Source of the DNA: Octopus vulgaris
Taxonomy: Eukaryota
Reading direction: 5' to 3'
Assembly: GCA_951406725.2 (NCBI GenBank)
Contig: OX597825.1
Span: 18,910,001-18,974,000, forward strand
DNA length: 64,000 bases
The position numbers were made by a program, and so were the translations under genes. Shown here in pieces: positions 3,491 through 63,118 of the stretch (its first letter is position 1; every line of letters begins with the position of its first letter). The notes beneath the pieces were generated by a model. It searched no databases. It saw only the letters and a list, made by a program, of their open reading frames with translations, and had not been told where the DNA came from.

Positions 3491-4564
3491 CTGTGTCTAT
3501 ATATGTATGTGTGTGTATACATTCTTCTTGCTTTATCAATACATGTATTAAATTTCGAGGTATGTATAGTCTCTAAACTATATACATTCCACATACATAT
3601 ACAGACACATATGTATATATATATACAACCTCGTCTTTATATTATATATACTAATTGATTGTCATTTTCATAAATTTGTGAACGCGCAACTTCGGTAGTA
3701 GCGGCAAGCAAGAACTGATTATCTCTTGCACCGTCTAAACGCTCGGTTGAATTCTCCGTGATGCTTTGTTGTTTTAGAAATCATCAAAGAGTTTTATCGA
3801 CTGAAGATTCTCCAATGTTCTAAGAAACTATAACATCATTATCTGAAAACCAGTTTCTGAATCGTGTAATTTGGTTTTCTGCAAATCCAAATACTTATAC
3901 ATCTAGAATAGCATGATTTAATTGACATCATTCAAGAGTATAAACTACTTACTTACAAACCAAGACGAAGTTTAAAAATATAATTTACAAGGTGTTTCAT
4001 ATAAATTCAAATTTTCTTTAGAAGTATGCAATGCAAAAGTCTATAAGTTTTGCAAAAGACTACGAGTGAAAAGGTCTCATTAACCTAGATTGTACTATAA
4101 GTTTAAATTGTAAATACGTGTGTTCAATATACGTATATATATGTATGGTATGTGTGTGTGTGTATATATATATACATACATATGTGCATATATGTATATA
4201 TGTGTATACACATACACACATATAGATAAATGTATGTGTGTATATATACATATATATGAATTTTTTTCCGTAATGAAATAAAAAACAAGCCTGAATAGAT
4301 ATTAGGCAAATTCATATATACACACGCTGATATAGAACCAACGTTAAACCCTTTATTCGCAATATTACCGAAACTGGAACTTAACTATGGTCTGTCTATA
4401 GCAATTATTCAGCATTACCTGACACCTTTGGGTCTCAATGACACCATTATCTCATATATATATTTTACTCAAGAAATGAAGAGGCAGGCTGTTATTGTCG
4501 TTGTAAATGCTGAGCATAGCAATTTAGAAATATCACAACTTTTAAAAGTTGCTAAATCTTTAGT

Positions 4565-5800: not shown

Positions 5801-6553
5801 ACAGAGGGATTTTTAATTGCAGCACAAGACCAAAGCCTCCCCACCAGAAATTACCAAAAACATGTAATGAAAAGAAATATTACAAGTAACTGCAGAATAT
5901 GTGGAGATGGACAAGAAACAATAAATCATATTATCTCTAGCTGCCCAGTCCTGGCTAAGAAGGAATATATTCACAGACATGACAGAGTTGGAACCTACAT
6001 ACATTGGAAGCTATGCCAACATTATGGAATAACAACAGAAAAAAGATGGTATAGGCACACACTAGAAAAGGTCACAGAAAACGAGAAAGCAACCATACTC
6101 TGGGATATGCCGATACACACAGATAGAGAAATTAAGGCCAACAGACCAGATATAGTTGTCAGATACCATGAAGAAAAAAATGCTTTCTAATTGATGTATC
6201 AATACCGGCAGATGACAACGTGCCTCTAAAAGAAATGGAGAAACTCTCAAAATACAAAGACCTGGAAATAGAGGTAACTAGAATGTGGAATCTGAAAACA
6301 GAAACAATTCCTATCATAGTAGGTGCATTAGGCATGATAAAAAAATATTCAGACAAATACATAGCAAAAACAGCAGGACTTACAAACACATATAACATAC
6401 AGAAAATTGCACTACTAGGCACTGCACACATCCTACGCAGAACACTTTCCATACAATAACCATCAGAGCATCACAACAAATCACAGCACATACCCAAGGC
6501 ACACAGAGCTGCGCTCGGTAGTGAAGTGAAAGCACGCTATAAAAATAAAACTA

Positions 6554-6557
<4 letters not shown>
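5801..6557 (+). mobile_element. 5'-truncated R4/Dong-like LINE (family 2): CCHC zinc knuckle and PD-(D/E)xK endonuclease, one frameshift
   Basis: TEGFLIAAQDQSLPTRNY...CRICGDGQETINHIISSC...RHD...NRPDIVV / FLIDVSIP...KLSKYKDLEIE...PIIVGALG...KIALLGTAHILRRTLSIQ*. Frameshift in the A-run near 6174-6180. (AAT)n on both flanks. Confidence 0.93.
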
Positions 6558-6639
<82 letters not shown>

Positions 6640-6682
6640 TAATAATAATAATAATAATAATGATAATAAAAATAATAATAAT

Positions 6683-7061
6683 ACTGATGCAGTACCAAGC
6701 AGTGGCACCTGATTTTAACTGATTGAAAGTGTTATCATGTACATTGTTTTGTCTTGGTATAAAAAATGGGCTAAAGCAAATATTCTGCTCAATACCACAG
6801 ACTTGCTTGTCAGTTGTTTGACCTTAACCAGTTTGAATAATGCAGCGCTGAGCGGGATGGGTTAATCGACCCGAAGAAAATACTAACTAGGCCCCTCCTG
6901 CTAGGTCTTGTGCTGTGAATCTTGATATGAGATCACCATGTCGCGCACATATGGTTGTGATGTATTGCTTGGTGTACCCTTATCAGAGGGTAGTCATGAT
7001 GGTTATAATAGGCTTCGTATATTTCACCCTAGTTTTACTTTGATGCACTGCTCTCTCACTC

Positions 7062-7062
<1 letters not shown>
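6683..7062 (+). mobile_element. Non-coding (AAT)n-associated retroposon 'X', internally deleted copy
   Basis: Homologous to 7131-7690; ends ctctctcactcaataataat. Confidence 0.8.
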
Positions 7063-7130
<68 letters not shown>

Positions 7131-7134
<4 letters not shown>

Positions 7135-7690
7135 GCCCTGATGCAGTACCAGGCAGTGGCTCTCATGGCTTCTGATCTTAACTGATTGGAAGTGTCATCA
7201 TGTACATTGTTCTGTCTTGGTATAAAAGATGGGCTACAGCAAATATTCTGCTCAACACCACAGATTTGCTTGTCAGTTGTTTGACCTTAACCAGTTGAGC
7301 ATGTCCCTTAGTGGCTGACGATATGTGCATCTCTGATCACGAGCAGAAGTAGTGGGGGAGCATCATAGCCATGTGTTGAGAGGGATTCTTTGGGGTTTGA
7401 ATACTTCACCTCTGGAAACATGGGTGGTTATTTCAACATCCTTAAACAACCCTTATTGAGGGACCGTTTGAACGGGATGGGCAACTCAACCTGAAGAAAA
7501 TTCTAACTGGGCCCCACCTGCAAGGTCATGTGCTGTTTATCTTGATATGAGATCACCATGTCGCGCACATGTGGTTGTGATGCATGTGCCTGGTGTACCT
7601 TTATCAGACGGGTAGTCATGATGGGTATATTGGGCTTCGTATATTTTACCCCAGTGTCACTTTGATGGCATGCACTGCTCTCTCACTCAA
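7131..7690 (+). mobile_element. Non-coding (AAT)n-associated retroposon 'X', longest copy (~560 bp)
   Basis: Five copies in the window (6683, 7131, 41430, 48603, 56032) share the 3' end gcactgctctctcactc-(aat)n and all sit next to (AAT)n. Confidence 0.85.
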
Positions 7691-9158
7691 TAATAATAAT
7701 AATAATAATAATATAGTAGCAAATGTATATTTATAATGATGAAAATATAATATAAACCATTATCTATTTATCCCATCCTTCATGTCTTGTTTCCATATCT
7801 ATAAATACTAAGCTGAGAGAAACCATGTATATATTATTAAAGAATACACTACATTCAGTTGTCTTGCACCGCATATCATTGTGTATATCTGGATCAAATA
7901 TACAACTGCATACCTCAGTAGTTCAGTATCAAGACTAGTAGGCTTTGACTTAGGTGTTACGACCTACTAATGGGTGATCTTAAGCATTTATGTGCCACGT
8001 TGAAAAGTGGCAACTATTATTTAAAACATTTAAAGTTAATGATCATAATTTCTTCAGTTATACGGCAATAATGAAGCCCATAAAAGCCATTGCTTTCGTT
8101 TAACATGTATAACATTACAAAAATAATTCGATTATATGGTGCCTTTCATGCTAAATAAGATAATCGTATAGTGAAATAGCACTAAAGGTAAGTATTTAGG
8201 TAAATTTAAATGCACATCAAAATTTCGTATGTCAATTTAAGTATCGTTCTTTGTAGTGCAACAAATTTCATTACGCATTTAGCTTACACAAATTGTTCTA
8301 TTTCCTCGAAAGCTCTTCATTTGCGTTATTTTTGCTGCTTACATTTTATCTTGTTTTGGATCAAAGAGGACGAAAATATAAAAGCATGAAAATATAAAAT
8401 CTCAAGATTGTGCAGAAACAAAAGAAAGTGTCAATTCGTAATGAAGGAGTTGAATTTGAGGACATTCTTACACAATAGCACGTTTTCTACGGAATTGCTC
8501 ATGAGGCACGCACAATGCCAGTAAGCGTGCATAGAAAGCATGACATGTACGAAGAGATATATTGCCTCCGGGCAGTTTTTCAGTTGGCATTCATACAAAT
8601 ATAGATACATTTTTCGTACAAAAATTTATCATAAAATGGTGACTGCATATGCCTCTATATGTACGCATTATGTATGTATGTATGTATATATTTATGCTTG
8701 TATGTATGTATACATACATGTATATATACATGTATATATACATGTGTGTATACATAAATACATACATACATGTATGTCGTTAAAACTATTTACAATGCCA
8801 TTCGCAAAACGAGACTGTCTTGAAATAAACTTAGAAAATCCCTCTCTTATGGAATACATTCATAAATATCAACTCAAAGAATACTGGTGTAATATTCCCA
8901 TCAAATATAAAGGAAGAGCGAAATTATGTGGTTTGGTAGTCTCAGTGCTGGGGTTGGTGGATATTTATATCACCGCTAGCGCACATTTTGCACGAAAAGC
9001 CATAATGAGAAATTCTCTCATGATAACTACCGCAGTATAGCTTCTTCTAACAGAACAACCACATTTGAGTGGGGATAAATATTACCTAACAATCTTAAAT
9101 ATGAGTAAAAAACCATCATCACTAAACCAAGCTATGTATTTATTTCCTTAACATTATA

Positions 9159-25849: not shown

Positions 25850-26098
25850 GCTCTTTTACTCTTTACTCTTTTACTCTTTACTATTTTCATTGTTTCAGTC
25901 ATTTGACTGCGGCCATGCTGGAGCACCGCCTTTAGTCGAGCAAATCGACCCCGGGACTTATTCTTTGTAAGCCCAGTACTTATTCTATCGGTCTCTTTTG
26001 CCGAACCGCTAAGTGACGGAGACATAAACACACCAGCATCGGTTGTCAAGCAATGCTAGGGGGACAAACACAGACACACAAACACATACACACACACA

Positions 26099-26150
<52 letters not shown>

Positions 26151-26502
26151 GATATATAAATAAACATATATATATAACGGGAACGTTTATGAAAATAAAC
26201 AAAAGACGAAGGCAGGTGGAATACAAACAAACAATTGTATTAGTATGGAGCTCAGGAATATAAATAAAACAAGTCTTTTACGTTTCGAGCCTACGCTCTT
26301 CAACAGAAAGATACACAGTACGGAAAGAAACAAGTATATATACATATATACGACAGGCTTCTTTCAGTTTCCGTCTACCAAATCCACTCACAAGGCATTG
26401 GTCGGTCCGGGGCTATAGCAGAAGACGCCTGCCCAAGATGCCACGCAGTGGGACTGAACCCGGAACCATGTGGTTGGTTAGCAAGCTACTTTCCTGCGCC
26501 TA
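25850..26502 (-). mobile_element. SINE family B with internal (TA)/(TG) microsatellite, interrupted by a nested insertion at ~26175-26335
   Basis: Matches 57091-57493 in reverse; tail (tactctttt)n; head ccacatggttccgggttcagtccc on minus strand. Confidence 0.9.
26274..26311 (-). ncRNA. Ultra-minimal hammerhead-like motif (core CUGUUGA) in a ~160 bp element nested in (TA)n
   Basis: Minus strand tcttt-CTGTTGA-a-gagc(gtag)gctc-GAAAC-GTA-aaaga; homolog at 62661. Confidence 0.65.
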
Positions 26503-41179: not shown

Positions 41180-41962
<783 letters not shown>

Positions 41963-47003: not shown

Positions 47004-47224
47004 CTACTCTTTACTCTTTTTACTCTTTTACTTGTTTCAGTCATTTGTTTGCGTCCATGCTGGAGCACCGCCTTTAATCGAGCAACTCGACCCCGGGACT
47101 TATTCTTTTGTAAGCCCAGTACTTATTCTATCGATCCCTTTTGCCGAACCGCTAAGTAACGGGGACATAAACACACCAGGATCGGTTGTCAAGCAATGCT
47201 AGGGAGACAAACACAGACACACAA

Positions 47225-47257
<33 letters not shown>

Positions 47258-47424
47258 CATATATACGACGGGCTTCTTTCAGTTTCCGTCTACCAAATCC
47301 ACTCACAAGGCTTTGGTCAGCCCGAGGCTATAATAGAAGACACTTCCCCAAGATGCCACGCAGTGGGACTGAACCCGGAACCATGTGGTTGGTAAACAAG
47401 CTACTTACCACACAGCCACTCCTG
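47004..47424 (-). mobile_element. SINE family B, near full length
   Basis: Close reverse-complement match to 57091-57493. Confidence 0.92.
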
Positions 47425-47859: not shown

Positions 47860-48600
<741 letters not shown>

Positions 48601-48602
48601 AA

Positions 48603-49118
48603 ATTTTAACTGATTGGAAGTGTCATCATGTGCATTGTTTTGTCTTGGTATAAAAAAATAAGCTACAGCAAATATTCTGCTCAATACCACAGATTTGCAT
48701 TTTCAGTTGTTTGACCATAACCAGTTGAGCATGTCCTTTACTGGCTGACAATATGTGTATTTCTGATCACGAGCAGAAGTAGTGGGGGAGAATTATAGCC
48801 CTCTGTTGAGGAATTCTTTGGGGTTCGATAGTTCGCCTCCGGAAACATGGGTGTTTAATTAAACATCCTTAAACAGTCCTTATTCAGGTACCTTTTCAGC
48901 GGGATGGGCTACACGACCTGAAGAAATTTCTGACTGGGCCCCACCTGCAAGGTTATGCGCTGTTCATCTTGATATGAGATCACCATGTCGCGCATATATA
49001 GTTGTGATGCATGTGCCTAGTGTACCCTTATCAGACGAGAAGACATGATGGGTATACTGGGCTTCGTATATTTTACCCCAGTGTCATTTTGATGGCATTA
49101 ACTTCTCTCTCGCTCAAT
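48603..49118 (+). mobile_element. Retroposon X copy
   Basis: Homologous to 7178-7690. Confidence 0.87.
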
Positions 49119-49533
49119 AATTATTATTATAATTCTTTTTAATTGTTGGCTATTTCTAAGAAAACAATGAGCCAATTTTGTAACATTATAATTTATAATG
49201 CTTCAATTATATTTTTTAATTTTTTGCATAATCTTAAAGCAATATACATGCTGCAAATTAATATTGTAGTTGGAATAAAAGGCAATAGATTGCAGTTTAC
49301 ATCATACGTAATATATCATAGTGTCTTAAATTTACTTTTTGAAGCAACATGTTTTCTGATTATTATATAAACGTAACTGTACATTTCTAATTTGAACGAA
49401 AGCTGTGAAAGAATTTAAAACAATTTTTGTTCAAATTACATTGATATACGCGTATGGAAATGAGTATGAGGATTCTTATAATATACGTATATATTCTGTT
49501 TACACACACACAGATACACACCCGCACAAACAC

Positions 49534-55990: not shown

Positions 55991-56031
<41 letters not shown>

Positions 56032-56033
<2 letters not shown>

Positions 56034-56140
56034 CATGTGCCTGGTGTACCTTTATCAGACGGGTAGTCATGATGGGTATATTGGGCTTCGTATATTTTGC
56101 CCCAGTGTCACTTTGATGGTATGCACTGCTCTCTCACTCA
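56032..56140 (+). mobile_element. Retroposon X 3' fragment in (AAT)n
   Basis: Matches 7581-7690; (AAT)n on both sides. Confidence 0.85.
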
Positions 56141-56158
56141 ATAATAATAATAATAATG

Positions 56159-56223
<65 letters not shown>

Positions 56224-56290
56224 TTAGCCAAAGCTCATATCAGATCAGAGGGAATATAAACCATGACAAATAGTAGTAAAAGAAATGACT

Positions 56291-56752
<462 letters not shown>

Positions 56753-57090: not shown

Positions 57091-57493
57091 AGGCGCAGGT
57101 GTGGCTGTGTGGTAAGTAGCTTGTTTACCAACCACATGGTTCCGGGTTCAGTCCCACTGCGTGGCACCTTGGGCAAGTGTCTTCTACTATAGCCTCGGGC
57201 CGACCAAAGCCCTGTGAGTGGATTTGGTAGATGGAAACTGCAAGAAGCCCGTCGTATATATGTATATATATATATATATATGTATGTGTGTCTGTGTTTG
57301 TCCCCCTAGCATTGCTTGACAACCGATGCTGGTGTGTTTATGTTCCCGTCAACTAGCGGTTCGGCAAAAGAGACCGATATAATAAGTAATGGGCTTACAA
57401 AGAATAAGTGCCGGGATCGAGTTGCTCGATTAAAGGCGGTGCTCCAGCATGGCCGCAGTCAAATGACTGAAACAAGTAAAAGAGAAAGAGAGT
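57091..57493 (+). mobile_element. SINE family B, reference copy (tRNA-like head, internal microsatellite, aaaagag tail)
   Basis: ggcgcaggtgtggctgtgtggtaag (A box) ... gggttcagtccc (B box) ... caccttgggcaagtgtctt (CORE-like) ... aaacaagtaaaagag. Confidence 0.92.
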
Positions 57494-57979
57494 ATACTGT
57501 TTTTGAGTACGTTTGCCGTTAATCTGTTTTAACAGTAAGCCGAGCCTGACTGACCAACCGTATAATCTAAATCGTTCACTCGTGACTACTTCATATTTTT
57601 GCATATCTGTGATCATTATATTCATTGTGGTCATTGGTAGGAAATAAATTTTGGTAGCAAGTCAAGTGATGGCTTATAAACGTTATTGTTGGTGTAATTA
57701 GTTTAACGCGAGAATGACGTCTGCACACTAACTGGCGGGTCAATGCAGATCAAAAGAATTGACCGATAATCTGTGATGAGTGTTTGAGTACTGCAGCTAA
57801 TCTGAAGTGTCATTGAAGGTGCTAAAATGCAAATACGTCTTAAGTGAAAAGAAAAAAAAATTACTGGTTAATGTTAAATAAATCTAAGAGTTGATCTGCC
57901 TGAAAAACACTAGTGCAATTAGCATAATTATACCATTGTCATTAGGCTATTAATGAAATTATAATAATATAAAATATTT

Positions 57980-58732: not shown

Positions 58733-59160
58733 TAAATAAAATAATGTTTGTAATTATTTCCTGTTTTGGGCGAAATGATTTTAAACAAATTTTGTTTGTC
58801 TTCACCGCATAGTTATTTGCAGATTGCTTTAAGACTTTCCAGCATAAGAAACACAATGCTCAACATTATAACTAACTTAACGATTTTTAACTTTAAACTA
58901 CATTTGCTTACTTCAGAGATGTCTGCTAAAACGTTCTAAGTTAATGCAGTCGTTTGTAATAAGCAACTGAATTTGCATTCAAGTATTCGATTAGCAAACT
59001 CACTAATTACACATACTAAAATCTAACAACCATGTGATTGACGGAGTACAAGATTTAACAAATACAGACGCATAGAATTAATTCGGTTCACAACCCGACT
59101 CAATAGCGGCAGTAACATTACTGCTGCTACACGGATTTTAGTATCAGCAGAAGTAGTTTC

Positions 59161-60462
59161 AGGCGGCGAGCTGGCAGAAACGTTAGCACACCGGGCGAAG
59201 TGCTTAGCGGTATTCGGTCTGCCGCTGCGTTCTGAGTTCAAATTCCGCCGAGGTCGACTTTGCCTTTCATCCTTTCGGGGTCGATAAATTAAGTACCAGT
59301 TACGCACTGGGGTCGATACAATTGACTTAATCCGTTTTTCTGTCCTTGTTTGTCCCCTCTATGTGTAGCCCCTTGTGGGCAGTAAAGAAATAAGTATTTC
59401 GTCTGTATTTACGTTCTGAGATCAATCCGCCGAGGTCGACTTTGCCTTTCATCCTTTCGGGGTCGATTAAATAAGTACCAGTCACGCACTGGTGTCAATA
59501 TAATCGACTTAATCCGTTTGTCTGTCCTTGTTTGTCCTCTCTGTGTTTAGCCTATTGTGGGTTGTAAAGAAATAGGTATTTCGTCTGTATTTACGTTCTG
59601 AGTTCAAATTCCGCTGAGGTCGACTTTGCTTTTCATTCTTTCGGGTTCGATAAATTCAGTAGCAGTTGAGTACTGGGGTCGATCTAATCGACTGGCCCCC
59701 TCCCCTAAAAATTTCAGGCTTTGTGCCTAGAGTAGAAAAGCAACATTACTTCTACTACACGGATTTCAGTATTAGCGAAGTTGTTTCAGGCATTGATCTG
59801 GTAGAATGGTTAGCACGCCGGGCAAAATTCTTGGCGGCATTTCGTCTGCCTTTACGTTTTGAGTTCAAATTCCGGTGCAGTCGACATCACCTTTTATCCT
59901 TCCGGGCTCGATGAAATAAGTACGTCTTGGGCCAGGTTAGATGTAATCGACTTAATCCTCGCCAGATATTGCTGGCCTTTTACCAAAATATTAAATCAAT
60001 ATCAGTGTAAGTAATTAAAAGCGACGTACTGGCAGAATCGTTAGAACATCGGTTTAAATACTTAGCAGCATATCGTCCCTCCTAACGTTTTGAGTTCAAT
60101 TTCCGCCGGGGTCGATTTTTGTCCTTCATTCTTTCGGAATCGATGAAATAAGTACCAGTTGAATACTGGCGTCAATATAATCGACAAAAAGTTTCCCGGA
60201 AATTGCTGACCCTGTGCCAAAATTTGAAATCAGTATTAGTAACAAGCAGTTTCAGGCGGTGAACTAGCTGAATCGGGTAAAATGCTTAGTGGCGATTTGT
60301 CCGTGGCTATTTGTACGTTCTGAGTTCAAATATCACCTTGGTCGATTTTGACTTTCACTCTTTTGAGGTCAACAAAATAAGTACCAGTTGAACACTGGGA
60401 TCAGTTTGGTCATCTTAGCCCCTTTACAGAATGTTCAGGCCTTGTGCCAGAATTCGAAAACA
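59161..60462 (+). mobile_element. Head-to-tail array of four SINE family A units; the first has an internal triplication
   Basis: Heads at 59161, 59787, 60020, 60253; internal unit starts at 59209, 59393, 59575. Confidence 0.88.

Positions 60463-62566: not shown

Positions 62567-63118
<552 letters not shown>

What the first reader, a model, noticed from the sequence alone, without database searches (positions are those of the whole stretch)
26175..26335. Ultra-minimal hammerhead element nested in the internal microsatellite of a SINE
Seen: a ~160 bp insert splits SINE B at its (TA)n, and a diverged homolog sits independently in (TA)n at 62610-62789. The best-conserved part between the two is GAAGAGCGTAGGCTCGAAACG (helix II plus GAAA). 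Helix III is reduced to ACGU, which can only pair between two copies. Inference: an obligate-dimer ribozyme in a tiny non-autonomous element that uses SINE-borne microsatellites as landing pads.
Basis: partly seen in the sequence, partly recalled or inferred. Interest (0 to 1): 0.7.

Follow-up and report, generated by a model that had tools for sequence, protein, structure and literature searches.

The report
Penelope retroelement tail with altered hammerhead
The 160-base insert is the broken-off tail of a very common protein-coding jumping gene that lands in TA repeats, and it carries that group's known minimal self-cutting RNA motif with one core letter changed (A6 to U), which likely slows the cutting, though cutting is untested.

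Summary
The insert, its homolog and the shared 21-mer are real, but this is not a tiny element of its own. It is the last 157 bases of an autonomous 4.46-kb Penelope-like element (RT, CxxxxCxxC linker, C-terminal GIY-YIG), 95% identical to an intact copy. The 21-mer has 18,144 exact copies, mostly 5'-truncated ends in (TA)n. SINE nesting is not enriched (1 of 89 against 14 of 146 TA arrays). Minimal, dimer-requiring hammerheads in such elements are published (PMC4209133). Between four subfamilies the motif changes almost only at the two free positions (1 of 36 constrained sites against 18 of 50 flank sites), and U6 is predicted to pair with the ACGU palindrome and favour an off fold. Tandems exist, but in source elements, not here. 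The scan had already noted this A6U variant in this genome and in others. Cleavage is untested.

The parts
26178..26334 (-). Copy A: 5'-truncated 3' end (pseudo-LTR fragment) of a Penelope-like element, subfamily A
   Evidence: 95.1% identical over 143 columns to the last bases (4321-4463) of the intact 4463-base unit in L092
26274..26311 (-). Minimal type I hammerhead motif: helix I UCUUU/AAAGA, core CUGUUGA-A (U6 at 26303), helix II GAGC/GCUC with GUAG loop, GAAA, ACGU palindrome, H17 = A; predicted cut between 26279 and 26278
   Evidence: sequence; pairing model, 5 + 4 base pairs
26170..26177 (-). TTATATAT tract at the element's 3' end; the same tract stands at the head-to-tail junction of source elements
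25851..26500 (-). Host SINE-like repeat (about 430 bases without the insert), with internal (CA)n(TA)n run at about 26064-26176 and 26335-26349; this copy lacks 13 bases near its head
   Evidence: window copies at about 47005-47424, 57096-57494, 56288-56743 and others; tandem repeats; head compared by eye with L181 and L246
62611..62788 (+). Copy B: 5'-truncated 3' end of an older subfamily of the same element, in a (TA)n array with no SINE halves adjoining
   Evidence: 76.6% to copy A; 80.5% to the L092 unit; groups with B/C-type copies
62660..62697 (+). Hammerhead motif of copy B: core CUGUGGA-A, helix I of 4 pairs, U16.1 replaced by C at 62691 so that the palindrome and the NUH site are lost
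62572..62610 (.). (TA)n array 5' of copy B
62789..63112 (.). (TA)n / (TATG)n array 3' of copy B

Best explanation
The insert is the last 157 bases of an autonomous Penelope-like retroelement and carries that element's minimal hammerhead motif with U in place of the core A6, which likely makes it a slow, conditional self-cutter that would act only in tandem transcripts and not in this solo copy. Shown: identity with the intact element, fixed 3' ends in (TA)n, variable 5' ends, U6 in intact young elements, head-to-tail tandems. Inferred mechanism: a transcript reading through a tandem carries two motifs; the element's GIY-YIG nuclease nicks (TA)n, and its RT starts inside the RNA at the junction tract UUAUAUAU, about 105 bases 3' of the predicted cut, and usually stops early, leaving tails of about 195 bases. 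Any copy that extends 5' of the cut site must come from RNA that was uncut (or rejoined) there, so fast cutting would be costly and a weakened core is tolerated or favoured. Dimer pairing of two ACGU palindromes, probably with protein help, would allow occasional processing. Identity as a Penelope-like tail about 0.97; the slow-cutter mechanism about 0.55.
For: Intact RT + GIY-YIG frames of 883-1214 codons stop to stop upstream of the motif in 19 of 19 loci chosen for long frames, all with U6; motif on both sides 4.4-4.6 kb apart with a head-to-tail junction in 12 of 19; Pfam RVT_1 E 1.4e-07, GIY-YIG E 0.0066 below its cut-off; DKG, C-x4-CxxC, IIY..YIG motifs. 84 of 89 copies end in a TA-type repeat; lengths 53-1397, median 195; 71 of 89 keep the motif. 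U6 15,730, A6 180, C or G 422. Between four subfamily majority rows 1 of 36 constrained sites varies (outermost helix I pair), both free sites (7, 17) vary, 18 of 50 linker sites vary, p = 1.5e-4. Sister families in the genome have CUGANGA with the same layout, 14,792 matches against 45 in the reversed control. Published: minimal dimer-requiring hammerheads with low activity in PLE pseudo-LTRs (PMC4209133); internal RT initiation, unprocessed RNA as main template and protein-assisted cleavage (PMC11167929); A6C cores give low but detectable activity (PMC3088659, PMC7151607).
Against: No cleavage data. All single mutants of the CUGA turn had low activity in a deep scan (PMC9901934), so U6 may simply be dead. 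5' ends show no clear pile-up at the predicted cut: 6 to 8 of 32 distinct loci start within 2 bases of it, about as many as at other TA-like positions (read by eye). No compensatory base change separates the four U6 subfamilies (helix II is invariant), and the non-catalytic loop II is just as invariant, which fits a protein-binding or promoter role too. The simple cofold of two copies prefers a helix II duplex (-26.8 kcal/mol) over the hammerhead dimer model (-14.7). Subfamilies were assigned by simple motifs and are related, so the p value is a rough guide.
Confidence: 0.55

Rival explanations
1. Same element, but the U6 motif no longer cuts; its sequence or fold is kept because it serves another step, such as binding the element's protein, positioning RT initiation or acting in the pseudo-LTR promoter.
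For: CUGA-turn mutants have low activity; U6 is predicted to sequester the palindrome; loop II is as invariant as the core; catalytic mutants did not affect insertion in vitro for a lizard element (PMC11167929); no clear pile-up of 5' ends at the cut; Naiad elements spread without canonical hammerheads (PMC8557442).
Against: The only freely varying sites between subfamilies are 7 and 17, and 17 stays A or U (68 of 70), the pattern expected of selection on hammerhead chemistry; C3-G8, G12, A13, A14 and the palindrome are all kept.
Confidence: 0.3
2. The U6 core is a fully working variant, rescued by the element's protein, by another metal ion or by an unseen tertiary contact with the invariant GUAG loop.
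For: U6 persisted through at least four amplifying subfamilies; A6C cores are rescued by Mn2+; a PLE hammerhead was protein-assisted.
Against: 71 of 89 copies span the cut site, so most templates were uncut there; predicted off fold.
Confidence: 0.08
3. The motif is a dead relic and its conservation is chance over short branches.
For: Individual copies do decay in the core: 21 of 70 have lost at least one further core base, with CpG decay of 7.0%.
Against: 1 of 36 against 18 of 50 variable sites between subfamilies; read-depth of related copies peaks at the motif in four runs of four organism codes.
Confidence: 0.04
4. One reading: a discrete ~160-base non-autonomous element that uses SINE-borne microsatellites as landing pads and cleaves as an obligate dimer between such copies.
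For: The nesting is real at this locus and at 1 more of 89; the length distribution has a mode near 150-230 bases; two short tandem arrays of 492 and 465 bases built from the element's two ends exist.
Against: 5' ends are continuous from 53 to 1397 bases and run on into the ORF; 18 of 89 copies lack the motif; nesting is rarer than for background TA arrays (1 of 89 against 14 of 146, p 0.011; either side 9 of 89 against 29 of 146, p 0.067); the short arrays are 99% copies of the autonomous element's ends, not of a 160-base unit.
Confidence: 0.03

Closest known systems
Minimal hammerheads (min-HHR) in pseudo-LTRs of metazoan Penelope-like elements (Cervera and De la Pena 2014, PMC4209133; parts 1-2 of 4 read, supplements not seen)
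   Same: Type I layout, helix I of 4-5 pairs, extra base between 9 and 10.1, G10.1-C11.1 pair, palindromic 15.2-16.2 in place of helix III, mostly solo copies from truncated elements, some inverted pairs, dimer predicted.
   Different: Core position 6 is U, not A; helix II is 4 pairs, not 7-8 as in the Schistosoma families. The only core variant in the parts read is U3-A8.
Small hammerhead variants of Penelope-like retrotransposons that cleave as dimers (Lunse, Weinberg, Breaker 2017; title seen in reference lists; text not held)
   Same: By its title, the dimer-cleavage claim itself.
   Different: Cannot tell: I could not see whether an A6U variant is among its classes. This is the main gap in the novelty claim.
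Neptune / Nematis EN+ Penelope-like elements (Craig et al. 2021, PMC8557442; passages read)
   Same: RT then C-terminal GIY-YIG, CX2-5CxxC linker, partial tandems, inverted truncated copies, microsatellite targeting linked to the linker.
   Different: Neptune versus Nematis not resolved (no RT tree with named references).
A6C hammerhead of phage Bcep176 (PMC3088659 passages; PMC7151607 part 1 of 4)
   Same: Natural change at core position 6 with low Mg2+ activity.
   Different: C not U, a single full-size ribozyme, not a fixed state of a high-copy retroelement lineage.
Metazoan non-LTR retrozymes (bioRxiv 10.64898/2026.07.22.740005, part 1 of 5 and passages; PMC7229834, search listing only)
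   Same: The 492-base five-unit array in L250 and the 465-base pair in L251 are tandem, non-coding, one motif per unit and derived from pseudo-LTR sequence.
   Different: The window copies are solo truncations, not retrozyme units; only 2 short arrays were seen among the first 100 of 167 junctions listed.

Membership tests
EN+ Penelope-like element | Single ORF with RT and C-terminal GIY-YIG | tested here: met
   (RVT_1 above cut-off; GIY-YIG E 0.0066 and 0.00067, below cut-off, motif visible)
EN+ Penelope-like element | Partial tandems forming pseudo-LTRs; 5' truncation | tested here: met
   12 of 19 long-frame loci; 167 exact junctions; lengths
Neptune/Nematis clades | CX2-5CxxC linker before GIY-YIG | tested here: met
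   CSRPRCRTC at residue 837 of 1081; definition
Neptune clade proper | RT phylogeny | not tested
   no named reference sequences fetched
Minimal type I hammerhead | Helix I and helix II flanking the core, extra base 9a, G10.1-C11.1 | tested here: met
   position table
Minimal type I hammerhead | Core C3 U4 G5 A6 N7 G8 A9 | tested here: not met
   U6 in 15,730 of 16,332 matches and in both window copies
Minimal type I hammerhead | G12 A13 A14, A15.1-U16.1, H17, palindromic 15.2-16.2 | tested here: met
   met in copy A and the family; not in copy B; U16.1 in 51 of 51 aligned copies
Minimal type I hammerhead | Covariation in helices | tested here: inconclusive
   helix II invariant among U6 subfamilies; swapped pairs seen in sister A6 families and in 5 of 38 rarer U6 matches
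Minimal type I hammerhead | Self-cleavage, as a dimer | not testable with these tools
   only assembled contigs available
Rfam hammerhead families | Covariance-model match | tested here: inconclusive
   none in the window; none at E 10 for U6 motifs or for the canonical A6 sister motif in L226, so the models miss minimal forms
Non-LTR retrozyme | Tandem units of fixed length, each with a hammerhead | tested here: not met
   window copies are solo; met only by L250 and L251

The most novel reading that the evidence does not exclude
A6U is an evolved safety catch: U6 pairs the 5' core strand (U4 G5 U6) with the A15.1 C15.2 G16.2 palindrome, hiding the dimer site so that templates reach the RT uncut, and is opened only in tandem or by the element's protein; it has been fixed in a highly successful lineage here and, by the scan's earlier unreviewed notes, in other animals too, which would make it a recurrent natural hammerhead class and a direct test of what Penelope hammerheads are for.
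Probability: 0.25. Interest if true: 0.65.

Novelty: new variant of a known kind. Interest (0 to 1): 0.38.

Why it matters
The function of hammerheads in Penelope-like elements is stated to be unclear (PMC8557442), and catalytic mutants did not affect insertion in vitro (PMC11167929). A young, intact, high-copy lineage with a fixed core change beside sister lineages with the canonical core in the same genome is a ready natural pair for testing whether cleavage matters. It also shows that searches for CUGANGA miss over 15,000 motifs in this genome.

Tried and rejected
Rfam: no hammerhead match in the window or in L250/L226, also not for a canonical A6 motif: uninformative. SINE targeting: tested twice, not enriched; the background set was the window plus 41 stretches fetched around element copies, so it is not a random genome sample. 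Cut-site signature at 5' ends: no clear peak. Expression: no RNA holder listed on record; only contigs, which cannot show ends or strand; the variant table did not list even the known position-7 differences, so it says nothing on position 6 in other organisms. Tree of 102 3' ends: A6 copies are scattered (20 changes) and sister A6 families join the oldest group, but the root is by midpoint, long branches meet and the bootstrap had not settled, so the direction A6 to U6 rests mainly on the canonical state of sister families. U6 in other families: 702 matches against 44 control, nearly all single mutants of this family or of A6 families among the 100 listed; 30 of 38 matches with GGRC/GYCC helix II are A6. 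Literature: 'hammerhead' + 'A6U' gave one twister paper; 'hammerhead' with CUGUNGA-type words gave nothing relevant among 20 of 56 listed; 'octopus Penelope hammerhead' gave nothing on this family; the O. vulgaris repeat paper PMC13282606 has no mention of ribozymes (passages). The 2017 dimer paper and all supplements were not seen and may describe A6U.

Full report
Observation. The window holds a 157-base insert at 26178-26334 (minus strand) inside the internal microsatellite of a SINE-like repeat, and a homolog at 62611-62788 (plus strand) between two (TA)n arrays; they are 76.6% identical. Read as RNA, copy A gives helix I UCUUU/AAAGA, core CUGUUGA plus an extra A, helix II GAGC/GCUC, GAAA, the palindrome ACGU and A17; copy B has the same layout but C at 16.1, which destroys the palindrome and the cleavage triplet.

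What it is. The 21-mer has 18,144 exact copies in the 2.8-Gb genome, none in the reversed control. The first 30 share a fixed 3' end followed mostly by (TA)n and have ragged 5' ends; the longest run on into a GIY-YIG frame. A protein search gave 18,651 candidates, 150 scored, many at 91-93% identity. I fetched 19 of these loci for their long frames: all 19 have an RT plus GIY-YIG frame upstream of the motif, and 12 have a second motif 4.4-4.6 kb upstream joined head to tail. The protein (about 1080 residues from the first shared Met) matches RVT_1 above cut-off and GIY-YIG below it, and has DKG, YIDD, a C-x4-CxxC linker and IIY..YIG. That is an EN+ Penelope-like element of the Neptune/Nematis type as defined in PMC8557442 (passages), where the linker is tied to microsatellite targeting. 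The unit is 4463 bases, copies are 95.5-98.4% identical to one another's longest block, and window copy A matches its last bases at 95.1%.

Unit or fragment. I sampled copies by a 19-base anchor outside the motif (20,661 matches): the first 90 places listed, one dropped as a duplicate. Of 89, 84 end in a TA-type repeat, 71 keep the motif and 18 are truncated 3' of it; estimated lengths run from 53 to 1397 bases, median 195. So the insert is one of many truncations, and the motif is not needed in the inserted piece.

Landing pads. Both SINE halves face the site in 1 of 89 copies and at least one half in 9 of 89, against 14 and 29 of 146 background (TA)5+ arrays; p = 0.011 and 0.067 in the direction of fewer. 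The target is (TA)n in general; the SINE is hit because it carries one.

Tandems. The youngest subfamily has 167 exact head-to-tail junctions, including a triple full-length tandem and two short arrays of 492 and 465 bases made of the element's two ends. Dimer partners in cis therefore exist in source elements, and are rare beside the solo tails. The window copies are 36 kb apart, on opposite strands and solo.

The core change. With the rest of the motif fixed, position 6 is U in 15,730 matches, A in 180 and C or G in 422; the A6 copies are scattered over the tree like private mutations, with a few in the oldest group. All 19 long-frame loci have U6. Sister families in the same genome carry CUGANGA in the same layout (14,792 matches, control 45), which fixes the register and makes U6 the likely derived state. 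In 70 aligned copies (71 with motif, one inverted twin dropped), majority rows of four rough subfamilies (29, 22, 5 and 8 copies; 6 unassigned) differ at 1 of 36 constrained sites, at both free sites (7 and 17), and at 18 of 50 linker, 13 of 20 upstream and 16 of 23 tail sites (p = 1.5e-4 for motif against linker). Individual copies decay: 49 of 70 keep all other core bases; departure from the subfamily row is 7.0% (CpG) and 2.4% (other) in the motif against 9.7% and 4.4% in the linker, the latter probably inflated by unresolved subfamilies. Folding of natural 38-base variants predicts that U6 pairs with A15.1 and G5 with C15.2 (probability 0.44-0.98 by subfamily, 15 sequences) whereas A6 carriers do not (G5-C15.2 at most 0.10, 7 sequences): a rod-like off fold that hides the palindrome. 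This is a nearest-neighbour prediction only.

Mechanism. Shown: element identity, (TA)n ends, truncation, tandems, U6, conservation pattern. Inferred: transcription through a tandem, nicking of (TA)n, internal RT start at the junction tract TTATATAT, early termination. The predicted cut lies about 105 bases inside the 3' end, so the 71 of 89 copies that span it came from RNA uncut or rejoined there. This agrees with PMC11167929 (parts 1-2 of 4 read): unprocessed RNA is the main template, cleavage needs protein and is dispensable for insertion in vitro. Position-6 changes lower activity strongly but not always to zero (PMC3088659 passages, PMC7151607 part 1, PMC9901934 passages). I therefore favour a slow, conditional dimer cutter (0.55) over a non-cutting structural element (0.3). 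Against cutting: no clear pile-up of 5' ends at the site among 32 loci, and no RNA evidence could be had.

Comparison and novelty. Minimal, dimer-requiring hammerheads in Penelope-like pseudo-LTRs are described in PMC4209133 (parts 1-2 read) and reviewed in PMC6765202 (passages). My searches found no paper on a natural A6U hammerhead, but the 2017 paper on small variants was not held and no supplements were seen, so absence from print is not established. The scan's earlier unreviewed notes report the same variant in this genome and in others, including sharks; I reached the reading before seeing them and did not test the other genomes. Verdict: a real feature, mostly an ordinary truncated retroelement tail; the fixed core variant is a new variant of a known kind with a clean test. 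Interest 0.38.

Noticed in passing
L250:3220-5398 (G000:C8:18600219-18602397, minus strand) and L250:5495: Five-unit tandem of 492-493 bases joining the element's last 206 and first 286 bases, 99% identical to the young element, one U6 motif per unit, with a short inverted copy at its 5' end and (TA)n on both sides: a retrozyme-like array caught at birth.
   Followed up: partly
L251:4555-5489 (G000:C2): Second, independent mini-tandem with a 465-base period (first 290 and last 181 bases of the unit).
   Followed up: partly
L094, L095, L252 (G000:C6:117391800-117405400): Tandem of three full 4.47-kb units with four motifs.
   Followed up: partly
L083-L102, tandem junction: The element's own unit ends in TTATATAT, matching its (TA)n target; this may let the nicked target anneal to the RNA, unlike the non-homologous start reported for the lizard element in PMC11167929.
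   Followed up: partly
L009/L010, L115, L180, L027: Inverted pairs of truncated 3' ends, as described for Penelope-like insertions.
   Followed up: no
L211-L229: At least two other high-copy families with canonical CUGANGA minimal hammerheads; the one with helix II GAGC/GCUC and a 3-base loop also ends in (TA)n, the one with a longer helix II does not.
   Followed up: partly
window 6295-7756, 41442-41922, 48119-49133, 56031-56222: A repeat whose pieces are bounded by long (TAA)n arrays, copies up to 97.7% identical; possibly the end of another microsatellite-associated retroelement.
   Followed up: no
window 59111-60447 and 746-1132: Partial tandems of a 182-base unit of another dispersed repeat.
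   Followed up: no
L187 and L191 (G000:C1:8012344 and 9154629): Same insertion with the same flanks twice, about 1.14 Mb apart: a segmental duplication.
   Followed up: no
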